From Gammaproteobacteria bacterium (GTDB taxonomy: Bacteria > Pseudomonadota > Gammaproteobacteria > Eutrophobiales > Eutrophobiaceae), in assembly GCA_965116495.1 (NCBI GenBank), contig OZ220696.1, positions 480,001 through 544,000 on the forward strand: DNA of 64,000 nt, written 5' to 3'. The notes under the pieces were generated by a model. That model saw only the letters and a list, made by a program, of their open reading frames with translations, was not told the DNA's origin and did not search any database. Position numbers and translations under genes: made by a program. This document shows positions 2-62,230 of this stretch, piece after piece. Each line of letters starts with the position of its first letter. The first letter of the stretch is position 1.

Positions 2-916
2 GTTGAAATTGTCTGTGCGCTGACCGTTGCAGATGACGAGATAAGGATCGACTTTGCCGGCAGCACCGAGGCAAGCACCAAGGGGATCAACCTGGTCCTG
101 AATTACACCCAGGCCTATGCCAACTACGGGATACGCTGTGTGGTGGGCGCCCACATTCCCAACAATAGCGGCTCGTTATCAGCGATAAAAATAAGCGCGC
201 CGAAGGGTTCCATCCTGAACGTCCAGCGACCCTGGCCGGTCTGTGCCAGGCACATCATCGGGCAGTTCCTGCCGGACGCGGTAATGGGTTGCCTGGCGCA
301 ACTGCTTCCGGAGAAAGTCCCGGCGGAAGGCGCGTCATCCCTGTGGGGCATTCAAATCCGCGGCGGCCCGGAGGTGGATGCCTCGTGCAATTTTGACAAC
401 CCGAATGCGGACGGGAGGCGTTACGAAATGCTGATTTTTAACAGTGGCGGAACCGGCGCCAGGCCGGACCAGGACGGTATGTCGGCCACGGGGTTTCCCA
501 GCGGGGTGCGCGCCATGCCGGTTGAGGTTGTGGAAAACATGGGTCCCGTGGTGATCTGGCGCAAGGAATTGCTGGCCGATTCCTGCGGCGCCGGCAAATG
601 GCGCGGCGGCCTGGGGCAGGTGGTGGAAGTAGGGACCATCGATGAGAGTCCGTTCCTGCTGTTCGCCATGTTTGACAGGACTGCGAATCCGGCCCGCGGC
701 CGTATGGGCGGCGAGGACGGCAAGGTGGGAACAGTCCGGGTAAAGCACGGAAAAACCCTGAACCCGAAGGGCGTACAACTCATAGAACCCGGACAACGAC
801 TGGAGCTGCTGCTGCCAGGCGGAGGCGGCTTCGGCGACAAGGGACAGCGCAGCGCTGCACACCGGGAACAGGATAAGCTGGCCGGCGTTGTCAATAATTT
901 GGGGTCAGAGCAATAA
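2..916 (+). CDS. Hydantoinase B/oxoprolinase family protein, 5'-partial (runs in from the window edge)
   Basis: Frame 2 is open from base 2. Motifs IDFAGS, GGTGARP..DG, PVEVVE, DSCGAGKWRGGLG and PGGGGFG. The last codons (LGSEQ*) are supplied by a GGGGTCAGAG repeat. Confidence 0.92.
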   Translation, partial: VEIVCALTVADDEIRIDFAGSTEASTKGINLVLNYTQAYANYGIRCVVGAHIPNNSGSLSAIKISAPKGSILNVQRPWPVCARHIIGQFLPDAVMGCLAQLLPEKVPAEGASSLWGIQIRGGPEVDASCNFDNPNADGRRYEMLIFNSGGTGARPDQDGMSATGFPSGVRAMPVEVVENMGPVVIWRKELLADSCGAGKWRGGLGQVVEVGTIDESPFLLFAMFDRTANPARGRMGGEDGKVGTVRVKHGKTLNPKGVQLIEPGQRLELLLPGGGGFGDKGQRSAAHREQDKLAGVVNNLGSEQ

Positions 917-917
917 T
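897..917 (+). repeat. Single GGGGTCAGAG REP-like arm
   Basis: TTGGGGTCAGAGCAATAAT (899-917) matches TTGGGGTCAGAGTAAAAAT (9581-9599) at 17/19 positions. Confidence 0.7.
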
Positions 918-1102
918 CGCTTATTAACTCTTTGTTTTATATAACATTTGATAAAATAAAATGACTCAATATCACACAATCCGTCCCACAGATATTACAG
1001 AGAATTTAAGGTGATATTATACAGTAAAACGCGTCTGGACGAGGCTTGGCGCAGCATGGGTGGGTCGGTCGCCCGATTATTCACAACAGGAATCGAATTT
1101 CC

Positions 1103-1280
1103 ATGGCTAGAGAAATAGAAAAACCAAAAGACAGACAGCGCGCGAGATCTATAAAAGGCCAAAGAATTAGGCTGTGACGAAGACGAAAACCGCTTTAACG
1201 CTACACTGAAAAAGATCGCAAAGACTGAACCGCAGAAAAAGAACGGCGAGGATGCAACTAGTACTCTTCCGAGCCAATAG
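1103..1280 (+). pseudogene. Frameshifted small protein (KAKELGCDEDENRFNATLKKIAK type), possibly an IS1595-associated passenger
   Basis: Manual translation: MAREIEKPKDRQRARSI, then a frameshift, then KAKELGCDEDENRFNATLKKIAKTEPQKK...*. The link to IS1595 is from memory of similar small proteins. Confidence 0.45.
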
Positions 1281-1329
1281 CTGATCAAGCGTGTTTGCTC
1301 GGCAATTTACACTGAACTATCAACAACTT

Positions 1330-2220
1330 CTATTGATCATGCCTGCCGGGGCCGTAGGCATCCCAGTATTCACGTGACAGTTTCTGTGCTTCGGTAATCT
1401 GAGCGCGTGTCATACCTTTGGCAACTTTTTCTTTGTTCTTTTTAGCAAACTCATCACCTTGTGCAGCTGCGATGCTGCCCCAAGCATAGGCCTGCACGTA
1501 GTCCTTAGGCACCCCCGCTCCGTTGGCATACATGAGACCGAGATTGTTCTGTGCCTTAGCATCTCCCTGCTCGGCGGCAAGGCGATACCAGCGTACCGCT
1601 TCCGTGTCATCTTCGGGCACCCCTTCTCCGTTGTCATACATGAGACCGAGATTGTTCTGCGCCCCAGCATGTCCCTGCTCGGCGGCTTTGCGATACCAGC
1701 GGACAGCCTCGGTGTCATCTTTGGGTACTCCTTCTCCGTTGTCATACATGAGACCGAGATTGTTCTGCGCCCCAGCATGTCCCTGCTCGGCAGCTAAGCG
1801 ATACCAGCGCACCGCTTCTGCATAGTCTACAGACCACCAGAGTCCGCTGTCATACCTGAGACCGAGATTAAACTGCGCTCCAGCATCTCCCTGCTCGGCG
1901 GCCAGGCGATACCAGCGGACAGCCTCGGTGTCATCTTTGGGTACTCCTTCTCCGTTGTCATACATGAGACCGAGATTGTTCTGCGCCCCAGCATGCCCCT
2001 GCTCGGCGGCTTTGCGATACCAACGCACCGCTTCTGCATCGTCTTCAGACACCCCGTCTCCGTTGTCATACCTGATACCGAGATTAAACTGTGCAGTAGC
2101 ATCTCCCTGCTCGGCGGCCTTTTTTGTAATCTCAAATTCATCTGCCATGGCAGTCGAACAAACACTTAACAACAGGCTCAATAACAGGCACCTGAACTTG
2201 AGTGGCTTACAATTGCTCAT
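1330..2220 (-). CDS. Secreted Sel1-like repeat (SLR/TPR) protein with 6 repeats
   Basis: Signal peptide ending AMA-D and six 36-aa AQxNLGxxYxxGxGVxxDxxEAVRWYRxAAEQG repeats. Confidence 0.95.
   Translation of the reverse strand: MSNCKPLKFRCLLLSLLLSVCSTAMADEFEITKKAAEQGDATAQFNLGIRYDNGDGVSEDDAEAVRWYRKAAEQGHAGAQNNLGLMYDNGEGVPKDDTEAVRWYRLAAEQGDAGAQFNLGLRYDSGLWWSVDYAEAVRWYRLAAEQGHAGAQNNLGLMYDNGEGVPKDDTEAVRWYRKAAEQGHAGAQNNLGLMYDNGEGVPEDDTEAVRWYRLAAEQGDAKAQNNLGLMYANGAGVPKDYVQAYAWGSIAAAQGDEFAKKNKEKVAKGMTRAQITEAQKLSREYWDAYGPGRHDQ
1690..1995. repeat. 108-bp-period coding repeats; 90-bp exact duplicate at 1690-1779 and 1906-1995
   Basis: Direct sequence comparison, offset 216 bp. Confidence 0.9.
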
Positions 2221-60418: not shown

Positions 60419-60456
60419 ACATTGTCCGTCCTGACTGTTCTCTGTAGAGTGTGGCT

Positions 60457-61062
60457 ATGACTGATACCGGTATCGATATTCCCGGTTACGAGGGTCGTGC
60501 CGCGCGGTTTGTTGAAGGTTGCGTCTTTCGTGTTGTCGACGTAGAAGGTTGCCAGATTGGCGATATGTTTACCCTGTGCGCGGCTGACCCGGGAGAATAT
60601 TTCAGTCCGGCCCTGACGCGCCAGGTCATCTTTCGCCTAACGCCCAGACCCGGGGATATTTTATACAGCAACCGCCGCCGGCCCATGTTGACCTTCCTGG
60701 ATGACACGTCTCCGGGCCGGCATGACATGACATTTGCTCCCTGTGACCCCGGATTTTATGCCGATCTGGGGGCGGATGAGACCCATCCAAATTGCCGGGA
60801 CAATTTTTACCAGGCCATCAAGTCCTTGAATATCAGCCTGGAACCGCCGCCGGACCCCTTCAACCTGTTTCAGAATACCGTGCCCAAAGCGGACGGCGAT
60901 TATGCCGTCGGCCAGACACTGAGCAAGCCGGGTGACTATGTTGAATTCAGGGCCGAAATGGACGTGGTCGTCGTGGTTACGGCCTGTTCGGTTGATCTAC
61001 CGGTTGAAGGTATCGAGCCCATCTGCGGTAAATCCACACCATTGCGCATTCAAGTTGTCTGA
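60457..61062 (+). CDS. DUF1989 / urea-carboxylase-associated family protein
   Basis: VVD.EG.Q.GD, LYSN..RPML....D...G.HD....CD, H.NC.DN, PFNLF.N, GDYV..RAEMD......AC. Confidence 0.9.
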   Translation: MTDTGIDIPGYEGRAARFVEGCVFRVVDVEGCQIGDMFTLCAADPGEYFSPALTRQVIFRLTPRPGDILYSNRRRPMLTFLDDTSPGRHDMTFAPCDPGFYADLGADETHPNCRDNFYQAIKSLNISLEPPPDPFNLFQNTVPKADGDYAVGQTLSKPGDYVEFRAEMDVVVVVTACSVDLPVEGIEPICGKSTPLRIQVV

Positions 61063-62191
61063 CACTGCCCGCGACCCTCTCCGGCATATCTTGAGTACCT
61101 GCGCAGCCCAGGTACTGGCCTTTTCACCGGCTATCCTGTCGCCACTCACCGTCGGCGGTCTTATCAATGGACTGCAAATCGGGGAAGTTGAGGTAGGCGC
61201 CCTGGTAACCGTCGAATTTCTTGTTATGGGTATTACCAGCATCCTGGTGGCGCCCGTCAGCGTCAGGATACCGTACCGGCTGCTGGCCCTGACGGGAGGC
61301 ATCCTGTTGCTCGCCGGGCATGCCTTCTCGGCAACGGCAACCGGCCTGGCCGAACTGTATCCATGGCGCATTGCGGCAGGGATGGGCTGTGGTTGCCTGG
61401 CGGCAGCGGTCAACGCCGCGATTGCTCAGGCGCGTGCGCCGGACCGGCTGTACGGACTGGCCTGGGCGGCAGGCTACACCTTCACCGCCATCCTGGCTGT
61501 CGTCATTACGGAGGGCAACGACCTGGTCACGTACGACATGGTGTTTGGATCCCTGGCGCTGACGTTGCTGGTATTTCTGCCATTGCTCTGGTTCATTCCG
61601 GATCACGGCAATGCGCCGGCGTCGCTGTCACTACCTCCGGACAGTATCCGCGCCGGAACTATGCTGATGGTCGGCATGATTGTCATCGCTATCAGCATGA
61701 TGGCGTATTACGCTTTTCTGGAACGCCTGGCTGTGCAGATCGATGCCAGTCCGGCTGAAACCGGTCGCATCATTGCCGCGGTACAGGTTGCCGGTATTAT
61801 CGGTGGGCTGCTTGCTGCGCCGGTAGCCAGCAGGTTCGGTCTGGTGAGGGGGCTGTGTGCAGTGTCAATTTTGCATGCCGTGACGATTACGCTGGCAGTC
61901 TGGACTGACTCTGTTATCGTGCTGGGAATGGTTGCCTTTTTTGAGGCTGTGCTGTTCATTATAATGGTACCCCTGATGCTGACCCTGGCGGCGGGCATCG
62001 ATGACAAAGGCCGCTGGGCTGCCATTGCCGGCGGCGTATTCGTTATCAGTACCGCGCTGGGTCCTGTTTTCGGTGCGTACCTGATAGAACAGACGGGGTA
62101 TGCTGCGGTAGCATGGATACAGTGGCCGGCGGTGCTGTTGGCCGTCATTATTTTTGACCGGGTAAACCCCGGCAGCACCGGCAATCTATAA
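61055..62191 (+). CDS. MFS transporter
   Basis: About 12 hydrophobic segments, D..GRWAA. TTG start overlapping the upstream stop is assumed. Confidence 0.85.
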   Translation: MSDTARDPLRHILSTCAAQVLAFSPAILSPLTVGGLINGLQIGEVEVGALVTVEFLVMGITSILVAPVSVRIPYRLLALTGGILLLAGHAFSATATGLAELYPWRIAAGMGCGCLAAAVNAAIAQARAPDRLYGLAWAAGYTFTAILAVVITEGNDLVTYDMVFGSLALTLLVFLPLLWFIPDHGNAPASLSLPPDSIRAGTMLMVGMIVIAISMMAYYAFLERLAVQIDASPAETGRIIAAVQVAGIIGGLLAAPVASRFGLVRGLCAVSILHAVTITLAVWTDSVIVLGMVAFFEAVLFIIMVPLMLTLAAGIDDKGRWAAIAGGVFVISTALGPVFGAYLIEQTGYAAVAWIQWPAVLLAVIIFDRVNPGSTGNL

Positions 62192-62206
62192 TTAATCAGA
62201 AGAACA

Positions 62207-62230
62207 GGGGACAGTTTTTAATCTGTCCCC
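62207..62230. repeat. GGGGACAG-N8-CTGTCCCC REP-like hairpin (may double as a terminator)
   Basis: 8-bp perfect IR with the GGGG[AT]CAG end. Confidence 0.65.

What the first reader, a model, noticed from the sequence alone, without database searches (positions are those of the whole stretch)
897..62230. Region looks built by repeated module capture: orphan gene ends and GGGG[AT]C palindromes at the seams
Seen: orphan terminal fragments of unrelated non-TA genes sit between intact modules. These are DUF7662-like 3' (4791), RND 3' (4981), RimK-like 3' (8013), thyA 3' twice (22038, 23086), GntR 3' (32986), flavin oxidoreductase 3' (42135) and SDR 5' (45230). Seen: palindromes or arms starting GGGG[AT]C (one copy GGGAGTC) occur at 901, 9583, 23063, 23595, 27787, 52559 and 62207, almost all at module boundaries, and their arms diverge after the shared tip. 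Known: GGGG[AT]CA-type REP-like repeats accompany some HUH REP-associated tyrosine transposases (RAYT/TnpA-REP). Inference: the locus is an integron-less accretion platform where cargo arrives with stubs of its donor neighbours, possibly through nicking at these palindromes. No RAYT is in the window.
Basis: partly seen in the sequence, partly recalled or inferred. Interest (0 to 1): 0.75.

Follow-up and report, generated by a model that had tools for sequence, protein, structure and literature searches.

The report
Integrase islands, not palindrome-driven gene capture
The broken gene ends here are real but mostly lie far from the short palindromes; they come from a mobile island that its own integrase likely placed into one palindrome, from leftovers of small gene cassettes that likely dock at the thyA gene, and from plain deletions.

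Summary
Stubs and GGGG[AT]C arms are real; their link mostly is not. The arms are TIR repeats of TIRYT transposases: 331 loci genome-wide, 6 in the window against a mean of 4.9, with an intact TIRtron 76 kb upstream. Only 1 of 8 named stubs abuts an arm. Against relative G022, 25 of 242 intergenic breakpoints lie near arms; the null is 9.3% (p=0.33). Three routes explain most stubs. (1) 901-9583 is a decayed P4-type integrase element whose direct-repeat ends are TIR arms; 8 of 14 relatives' copies sit in such repeats, and a second clade targets another TIR family. (2) The toxin-antitoxin cluster at 21400-24468 is a decayed array of thyA-docking units. Relatives show an SE/GInt-like element in thyA and tandem recombinase-free units of arm plus thyA 3' end. 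(3) Microhomology deletions and insertions account for GntR, flavin oxidoreductase and RND/RimK. SDR is unresolved. The scan reported REP-targeting tyrosine integrases, and att-scar cassette arrays at other genes, on other DNA before.

The parts
901..1010 (+). attL of the integrase element: TIR-B arm used as core, followed by a conserved att arm region
   Evidence: Same left end in 7 other copies; island absent in 5 of 5 aligned relatives
3280..4790 (+). Decayed mobilisation region (mobC and relaxase N-terminus relics)
   Evidence: tblastn of a relative's MobC (42%, E=4e-17) and relaxase (47%, E=3e-10) to 4195-4603; conserved in G015 and G022 copies
4791..4990 (-). 3' part of the element's own DUF7662-like gene, split by the captured chunk; 5' codons at about 8165-8185
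   Evidence: Pfam PF24698; uninterrupted in G015 and G022 copies
4981..8169 (.). Captured chromosomal chunk: RND 3' end, HpyAIV-family restriction enzyme, methyltransferase, RimK-like 3' end
   Evidence: Parents at C1:1857727-1856832 and 1855718-1855628; RND-MTase-RimK natively adjacent in G003 and G011, microhomology at both joints; NCBIfam
8245..9470 (-). P4-type tyrosine integrase, reading frame broken near the N-terminus
   Evidence: Pfam PF22022 and PF00589; 93% identical to the intact 392-aa G015 protein; split seen in translation
9583..9654 (+). attR core = left arm of a TIR-B dimer (the integration target)
   Evidence: 8 of 14 element ends at different TIR-B dimers; empty site holds TIR-B in G022, G015, G016
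21400..24468 (.). Decayed array of thyA-docking units with toxin-antitoxin cargo at a secondary att site
   Evidence: Left junction kept in G022, G015, G014; modules found behind native thyA in G003, G005, G008, G012, G018, G019
22037..22151 (+). thyA 3' scar 1
   Evidence: 82% to native thyA; same stub in G022 at the same place
23063..23130 (+). TIR-D hairpin plus thyA 3' scar 2; the only named stub next to a palindrome
   Evidence: the same hairpin follows the thyA stop codon in G022 units
23595..23616 (+). TIR-D hairpin at the end of the Arc-type module
24457..24468 (+). Relic of the right att arm plus core of the thyA element (right edge of the array)
   Evidence: 9 of 10 terminal arm bases match; the 12-mer occurs once in G000; G014 keeps 30 of 42 arm bases here
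27787..27867 (+). TIR-A dimer (miniature TIRtron derivative), a passenger in an intergenic gap
   Evidence: G022 has a TIR-B and G014 14 bp at this place, flanks colinear
32987..33099 (+). GntR 3' end left by an in-place deletion of about 510 bp
   Evidence: 509 bp (G022) and 517 bp (G015) more sequence, 15-bp overlap in G022
42047..44387 (+). Two ends of a larger module joined by a 13.2-kb internal deletion; gives the flavin oxidoreductase 3' stub at 42135
   Evidence: G014 holds 42049-42135 and 42134-44384 13.2 kb apart; full gene in G019
45230..45397 (+). SDR 5' stub; parent not found
   Evidence: Pfam adh_short; best other hit in G000 54% aa, no nucleotide parent in fetched loci
52559..52636 (-). 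Relic TIRtron right end (A-type arm plus last TIRYT codons) behind a HigBA module
   Evidence: 75% to C1:404465-404389
62207..62230 (+). TIR-C hairpin, not a seam
   Evidence: Shared with G022 inside a colinear block

Best explanation
The window is an accessory region whose gene stubs come from at least three separate routes, and its palindromes are passengers except where a P4-type integrase has likely used one as its landing site. (1) Shown: 901-9654 is an 8.75-kb island bounded by direct copies of a TIR-B arm, with an integrase and mobC/relaxase relics, and relatives' copies occupy many different TIR-B dimers. Inferred: the integrase recombines an attP that mimics the arm with the repeat, so a repeat family spread by a TIRYT supplies dozens of attB sites. 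(2) Shown: in relatives an SE/GInt-like element cuts thyA at the PFNIASY codons and leaves its right arm plus thyA codons 175-264; tandem units of thyA 3' end, cargo and arm without any recombinase follow. The window's TA cluster has the junctions of such an array at a second site. Inferred: orphan right arms let the recombinase, supplied in trans, excise and reinsert one-armed circles; deletions then shorten the thyA pieces, and TA addiction keeps the cargo. (3) Shown: GntR and flavin oxidoreductase stubs are deletion products, and the RND-RM-RimK chunk entered the island at microhomologies.
For: Island: absent in 5 of 5 aligned relatives, TIR-B at the empty site in 3 of the 4 shown. Both ends are direct TIR-B arms in 8 of 8 TIR-resident copies. 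All 7 integrases at least 93% identical to the G015 protein, query included, sit at TIR-B and form one clade (SH-aLRT 94, quick tree); 6 of 7 copies at 83-88% do not; relatives at 48-54% sit at tRNA ends. A second clade, 42% identical, has a TIR-C half at 11 of 12 ends printed, with a 17-bp direct repeat against an empty G000 hairpin. thyA: 10 arm-plus-thyA junctions in 5 genomes; 7 units of 1.1-5.8 kb with no integrase match at their coordinates; full elements of 26.3 and 37.8 kb in G015 and G001 with terminal inverted repeats, a 6-bp spacer and their own thyA copy. The same 1.1-kb unit occurs in G015, G022 and G016 at 97% with different neighbours. G014's secondary site starts with 69 bp of thyA exactly at the core, holds 11.6 kb of cargo 86-89% identical to that of the G001 element, and ends in an arm. 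Breakpoints: 28 of 33 clean indels lack an arm, 13 of these with an overlap of 4 bp or more.
Against: No recombination was assayed. The thyA recombinase was found in only 2 of 23 genus genomes and not in G000, so action in trans needs a past or visiting element. No empty copy of the secondary site was seen in the fetched loci, and its likeness to thyA is weak: 8-9 of 12 bases, and 407 G000 sites reach 9 of 14. The window itself has lost the left junction. Against the laxer null (all gene edges, 6.5%) intergenic breakpoints show a modest excess (10.3%, p=0.014). TIR-D hairpins recur at module ends in several relatives' arrays. 6 of 14 TIR-B-clade copies are not at TIRs. The SDR stub and the insertions at 42055, 45137 and 51921 have no assigned mechanism. 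Gene edges for the nulls came from a crude ORF caller, and only one relative (1.6 of 4.5 Mb) was used.
Confidence: 0.78

Rival explanations
1. One reading: a TIRYT (HUH) nicks at the palindromes and captures cargo with neighbour stubs, making the locus an accretion platform.
For: An intact TIRtron exists in G000. One 2.34-kb insertion (C1:402127-404472) holds a mini-TIRtron, a 299-aa ORF and the TIRtron, flanked by a 34-bp duplication of the neighbouring gene's 3' end. thyA scar 2 lies 23 bp from a TIR-D. Modest excess against the laxer null.
Against: 1 of 8 named stubs and 1 of 25 genome-wide stubs lie near an arm (null mean 2.1). 5 of 33 clean indels touch an arm: 3 are integrase elements, 1 is the TIRtron itself, 1 lies in a run of paralogous amidohydrolase genes. 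TIRtrons in G016, G001 and G010 are 1.03-kb units without cargo. New TIR-A dimers replace only 14-45 bp.
Confidence: 0.08
2. The thyA arrays are only scars: full elements inserted repeatedly, each later losing its left part by deletion or homologous replacement that restored thyA; the small units never moved on their own, and the secondary array came as one block.
For: The recombinase is rare (2 of 23). Several native thyA loci show shorter stubs (37-157 bp) without an arm. Large tracts are exchanged between these genomes, so shared units could travel by homologous recombination.
Against: G014's secondary insertion begins with thyA sequence exactly at the core rather than with the element's left end, and ends in an arm followed by host DNA, as expected for an inserted one-armed circle. 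Unit order differs among G015, G016 and G022.
Confidence: 0.35
3. The joins are assembly chimeras of co-occurring strains.
For: The genome is of metagenomic type, and depth steps suggest a mixed population around 41.9-52 kb.
Against: Single contigs of 4 runs bridge 11 tested junctions without differences there (one study, perhaps the source sample). Several junctions recur in other genomes.
Confidence: 0.03

Closest known systems
TIRtrons / TIRYT and their TIR repeat families (Di Nocera 2013, PMC3733652; TnpA-Y1 subclass 2.1 of Quentin 2018, PMC6006769; passages read)
   Same: Y1 HUH transposase with a C-terminal HTH between terminal inverted repeats starting GGGGWSAS; dispersed monomers, dimers and clusters of the same arms.
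   Different: At least four arm families coexist here; cognate genes for B and C were seen only in relatives. Copy-specific inverted outer flanks of A dimers and use of TIRs as integrase targets did not appear in the passages read.
Integrative mobilizable elements with P4-type integrase; CIMEs and tandem accretion (Guedon 2017 review, PMC5704250; passages read)
   Same: Tyrosine integrase with arm-binding domain, MobC and MOB relaxase, direct-repeat att ends, variable cargo, decay in place; tandem arrays at one target gene with displaced 3' fragments.
   Different: Target is a dispersed repeat, giving up to 4 specific copies per genome. The thyA units have one element arm plus a host half-site instead of attL and attR of a decayed element.
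SEs (strand-biased circularizing integrative elements; PMC9345347, PMC10214605) and GInts (PMC5385486); passages read
   Same: Four-gene module with one ordinary and one long tyrosine recombinase and a small coiled protein; imperfect terminal inverted repeats; 6-bp spacer; site-specific insertion into a gene with a rescue copy carried along (SE-6283 carries bcp).
   Different: Gene order differs (891, 687, 176, 371 aa). The host's 6 bp sit at the recombinase-distal end, opposite to the SE description. Target is thyA, a word absent from the main texts of the GInt paper and the SE host-range paper. No sequence link to named SE or Gin proteins was shown.
Integrons (IntI, attI, attC cassettes; recalled)
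   Same: Tandem, reorderable, recombinase-free units rich in TA and defence genes behind one insertion point.
   Different: No IntI or attC in the window; units are bounded by an element arm plus a thyA half-site.
Insertion sequences that target REP repeats (IS110 family, IS1397; names recalled; REP targeting by IS mentioned in PMC3733652)
   Same: Mobile element uses a multi-copy palindrome as a safe landing site.
   Different: Here the enzyme is a P4-type tyrosine integrase of a mobilizable island, not an IS transposase.

Membership tests
TIRtron / TIRYT (subclass 2.1) | Y1 HUH core with HuH and Y---NP motifs | tested here: met
   Pfam Y1_Tnp E=1.9e-11; motifs in the 276-aa translation; NCBIfam REP_Tyr_transpos 72 bits, below its cut-off of 80
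TIRtron / TIRYT (subclass 2.1) | C-terminal HTH domain | tested here: inconclusive
   Weak HTH_7, HTH_28 and HTH_23 hits at residues 260-294, all below cut-off
TIRtron / TIRYT (subclass 2.1) | Flanking TIRs with GGGGWSAS tip that form a dispersed family | tested here: met
   Arms at C1:403444 and 404465; 107 family-A arms in G000
   25 of 242 against 9.3% (p=0.33), but p=0.014 against 6.5%; 1 of 25 stubs; 5 of 33 clean indels, 3 of them integrase elements
IME with P4-type integrase (901-9654) | Tyrosine integrase with arm-binding domain next to an att site | tested here: met
   PF13356, PF22022, PF00589 in the intact G015 copy; window copy 93% identical but broken
IME with P4-type integrase (901-9654) | Direct-repeat attL/attR and an empty attB in relatives | tested here: met
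IME with P4-type integrase (901-9654) | Relaxase/MobC module without its own conjugation genes | tested here: met
   Relics only in the window; intact relaxase and MobC in a TIR-C-clade element of G022
IME with P4-type integrase (901-9654) | Excision and transfer in trans | not testable with these tools
SE / GInt (thyA element of relatives) | Four-gene module with ordinary and long tyrosine recombinases | tested here: met
   891, 687 (PF00589), 176 and 371 aa (PF00589) genes in G015; the module is 79% identical in G001
SE / GInt (thyA element of relatives) | Imperfect terminal inverted repeats and 6-bp spacer | tested here: met
   Left and right ends of both full elements
SE / GInt (thyA element of relatives) | Canonical gene order and homology to IntA/Tfp/IntB/Srap or GinA-D | tested here: inconclusive
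   Order differs from SE; 60 plasmid records match at under 60% (15 listed: 23-28%), none of those listed named Gin or IntB; no direct comparison with the type proteins
SE / GInt (thyA element of relatives) | Strand-biased circularisation | not testable with these tools
   Needs PCR or deep reads of circles
CIME | Retains both attL and attR of a decayed element | tested here: not met
   Units carry a right arm and a thyA half-site; no left end seen in them
Integron | IntI and attC sites | tested here: not met
   Only a P4-type integrase among 68 window ORFs; no Rfam match; no dedicated attC model was run

The most novel reading that the evidence does not exclude
This genus runs two undescribed variants side by side. 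One is an integron-like cassette array without IntI: an SE/GInt-like recombinase module excises and inserts one-armed circles (thyA 3' end, cargo, right arm) at thyA and at look-alike sites, leaving thyA intact and stacking TA and defence genes. The other is two independently derived clades of P4-type mobilizable islands that use TIRYT-spread repeats as attB, so one selfish element builds landing pads for another.
Probability: 0.45. Interest if true: 0.7.

Novelty: new variant of a known kind. Interest (0 to 1): 0.5.

Why it matters
It replaces one speculative mechanism by two testable ones. A site-specific integrase that targets a repeat present in about 50 dimers per genome behaves like a transposon while landing in safe intergenic sites, and it gives TIR repeats, whose role is open, a concrete consequence for genome plasticity. 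One-armed thyA units would show how a rare visiting element can leave a reusable cassette system that accumulates toxin-antitoxin and defence genes with no resident recombinase. The negative result matters too: the genome comparison gives no support for TIRYT-driven gene capture here.

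Tried and rejected
Composite transposon bounded by inverted TIR arms for 901-9654: rejected, the element ends are same-strand direct repeats. Integron or structured RNA: no Rfam match in the window. 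Stand-alone IS200-like hits at C1:2244784 and 2252569: not flanked by TIR arms. A folA 5' stub at 23635-23676: about 14 codons at 81-83% identity to relatives' folA starts, too short to rely on. Close relatives of the TIR-B integrase in metagenomes: 26 loci, best segment 38% identical, uninformative about targets. thyA recombinase in 400 class-level genomes: none at E<=1e-10; 35 homologues exist in the protein set, without context. The arm-plus-core pattern gave 12 stretches in genome contigs; in the 2 from Thiomargarita the bases after the core depart from thyA, and I did not follow them. Short genes are not nearer to arms than long ones (9% of 733 against 15% of 2937). Literature: searches found no paper on tyrosine integrases that use REP or TIR repeats as attB; searches found none on thyA-targeting multi-recombinase elements; two searches gave background only. 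The library lacks most subscription journals, the TIGER paper I tried was not held, and I did not open the supplementary target tables of the GInt and SE papers, which may list thyA. Passages of a VIPR preprint and of Integrase-On-Demand were read and did not bear on targets. A first self-BLAST timed out and was rerun in chunks. The careful integrase tree did not finish; the quick tree is cited.

Full report
SETTING. The window is G000:C1:480001-544000 of a single-contig 4.34-Mb genome with 22 same-genus relatives. It is accessory DNA: catabolic enzymes, TonB receptors, several toxin-antitoxin pairs, one restriction-modification pair and one tyrosine integrase. G022, G015, G014 and G016 share much of it at 82-97% identity, in the same order but with many indels.

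THE PALINDROMES. All seven are present. They belong to dispersed families: 227 arm pairs in a first scan; with stricter patterns 331 loci (284 C, 142 B, 107 A, 47 C2, 9 E, 3 D arms; 4 hits in 1 Mb of shuffled DNA). The window's 6 loci are ordinary against a mean of 4.88. An intact Y1 transposase with a likely C-terminal HTH lies at C1:403547-404434 between inverted A arms. This fits the TIRtrons of Di Nocera 2013 (GGGGWSAS arms; passages) and subclass 2.1 of Quentin 2018 (passages). The same 1.03-kb unit occurs at 93-97% in G016, G001 and G010 without cargo; other TIRYT-like genes sit between B arms in G018, G008 and G015 and beside C hairpins in G016. A dimers are miniature derivatives; where G022 lacks one, 14-45 bp stand in its place.

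TEST OF THE SEAM CLAIM. I aligned 1.6 of 4.5 Mb of G022 to G000 (472 colinear blocks). Of 344 breakpoints of indels of 300 bp or more, 30 lie within 100 bp of an arm. Of the 242 at or near intergenic DNA, 25 do (10.3%). The null is 9.3% for edges of intergenic gaps of 60 bp or more (n=1340, p=0.33) and 6.5% for all gene edges (n=2510, p=0.014). Repeats need room, so I take the first null as fairer, but the second shows a small excess. Among 33 clean indels with flanks of at least 88% identity, 5 touch an arm: three are integrase elements, one is the TIRtron, one lies in a run of paralogous amidohydrolase genes each followed by a C hairpin. Of 25 heuristic stubs in G000, 1 is near an arm (null mean 2.1), while 4 are in or at the edge of the window (0.37 expected). 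So the window is rich in stubs but the palindromes do not explain them.

ROUTE 1: AN INTEGRASE ISLAND IN A TIR-B REPEAT. 894-9641 is missing in 5 of 5 aligned relatives, and G022, G015 and G016 have a TIR-B at the empty site. The arms at 901 and 9583 are direct repeats. The island holds a P4-type integrase, broken near its N-terminus, and relics of mobC and a relaxase. Related elements of 3-14 kb occur in G015 (4), G022 and G008. Of 14 integrase-proximal ends, 8 lie in the left arm of 8 different TIR-B dimers and 6 at unrelated sites; the 8 have the arm at both ends. All 7 integrases at least 93% identical to the G015 protein are TIR-B residents; tRNA-targeting integrases are 48-54% identical (quick tree, 31 rows of which 2 are duplicates). 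A second clade, 42% identical, has a TIR-C half at 11 of 12 ends printed, in G022, G015, G016 and G005; one copy has a 17-bp direct repeat where G000 has the intact hairpin. Inference: two integrase lineages adopted TIRYT-spread repeats as attB. The RND-RM-RimK chunk (4981-8169) is cargo inside this island. RND, methyltransferase and RimK are neighbours in G003 and G011, and the interval is a variable defence slot in G018, G001 and G000. The chunk split the island's DUF7662-like gene, with a 10-bp microhomology on the left and patchy similarity on the right; the nearest arms are 4.1 and 1.4 kb away.

ROUTE 2: thyA ATT SCARS. Modules of the TA cluster lie directly behind native thyA in G008, G012, G018, G005 and G019, and in the thyA region of G003. 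In G015, G022, G001, G016 and G019 there are 10 junctions where a conserved 40-bp arm is followed by thyA starting exactly at the PFNIASY codons. G015 and G001 hold the complete element (26.3 and 37.8 kb): thyA cut at codon 174, six foreign bases, a left terminal repeat inverted to the right arm, a complete divergent thyA, and genes of 891, 687, 176 and 371 aa, two with PF00589. This works like the SEs and GInts (passages), though gene order and spacer polarity differ. Seven units between successive junctions are 1.1-5.8 kb long and show no integrase (tblastn; PF00589 search of G015, G001, G019, G022; G016 only). One 1.1-kb unit recurs at 97% in three genomes with different neighbours. At the site syntenic with window 21396, G022, G015 and G014 keep a host-to-thyA-core junction. 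G014 continues with 69 bp of thyA, 11.6 kb of cargo 86-89% identical to that of the G001 element, TA modules, and a right arm joined to host DNA. The window has lost the left junction but keeps 9 of the last 10 arm bases plus the core at 24457-24468, the only such 12-mer in G000. Inference: a circle made of thyA 3' end, cargo and one arm was inserted at a look-alike site and then decayed. The TIR-D beside scar 2 is the hairpin that follows the thyA stop codon in G022 units, so it is likely a passenger. Against this: the recombinase is in 2 of 23 genomes and not in G000, the look-alike is weak, no empty secondary site was seen, and a scar-only history remains possible. Tandem accretion at att sites is known for ICEs, IMEs and CIMEs (passages).

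ROUTE 3: DELETIONS. The GntR stub is an in-place loss of about 510 bp with a 15-bp overlap. The flavin oxidoreductase stub joins two ends that lie 13.2 kb apart in G014. The insertions relative to G022 at 42055-44416, 45137-51449 and 51921-54274 have no arm within 600 bp of their ends. Of the 28 clean indels without an arm, 13 show overlaps of 4 bp or more. The SDR stub has no parent found.

One G000 insertion (C1:402127-404472) joins a mini-TIRtron, a 299-aa ORF and the TIRtron, flanked by a 34-bp duplication of the neighbouring gene end. It is a single case outside the window. 52559-52636 is a TIRtron end relic behind a HigBA module, and the arm tip is shared with a second HigBA copy.

ARTEFACT CHECK. 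Contigs of four runs from one study, perhaps the source sample, bridge 11 junctions without differences there.

NOVELTY. TIRtrons, IMEs, SEs/GInts and tandem accretion are known kinds. My searches found no paper on tyrosine integrases targeting REP or TIR repeats or on a thyA-targeting multi-recombinase element, within an open-access library and without supplements. The scan's own unchecked notes report REP-targeting tyrosine integrases in at least 4 genomes and att-scar cassette arrays at other genes; I read them after and do not count them as support. Verdict: observation partly confirmed, unifying mechanism not supported, two new variants of known kinds found instead. Interest 0.5.

Noticed in passing
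G000 genome-wide, e.g. window 27787-27867: 25 of 42 TIR-A dimers have 6 or more bases of copy-specific inverted complementarity outside the arms (0.7% when partners are swapped); B dimers do not (4 of 51). This suggests one flank is copied from the other during insertion.
   Followed up: partly
G022:C1:735712-741699, 605311-613801, from 716433; G015, G016, G005: Second clade of P4-type mobilizable islands that insert into TIR-C hairpins; the hairpin looks like a tRNA T-arm, a possible route for the target switch (inference).
   Followed up: partly
window 52946-53265: About 320-bp repeat with 65 BLAST hits in G000 and many in relatives, partly reading as a HigA-like frame; MITE-like, not characterised.
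   Followed up: no
window 19263-19425: About 160-bp repeat with 30 hits in G000, absent at this site in G022 and G015.
   Followed up: no
window 36558-36683: About 110-bp insertion with inverted-repeat look where G022 has 14 bp.
   Followed up: no
G000 versus G022:C1:370001-1970000: Many blocks are about 80% identical while others are 92-99%, including 52.8 kb at 99.0% and 17 kb at 98.7%, pointing to recent exchange of long tracts between species.
   Followed up: no
window 41886-52200: Contig depth steps down (for example 52 to 42 to 38 in X4), and a loose end at 52006 in X7 continues with sequence from about 54290, suggesting subpopulations that lack parts of this stretch.
   Followed up: no
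window 16471-18150: The FAD-binding gene is replaced by a stretch of similar length that does not align in G022, G015, G014, G016 and G007; likely an allelic swap.
   Followed up: no
   Followed up: partly
G000:C1:1009417-1011783 and C1:3659593: Three adjacent tyrosine recombinase matches (RIT-like) and a 332-aa recombinase frame conserved in G022 and G001; not examined.
   Followed up: no
L254 (G010:C1:3151754-3154972): Tandem array of at least five TIRtron right-end units next to a truncated TIRYT.
   Followed up: no
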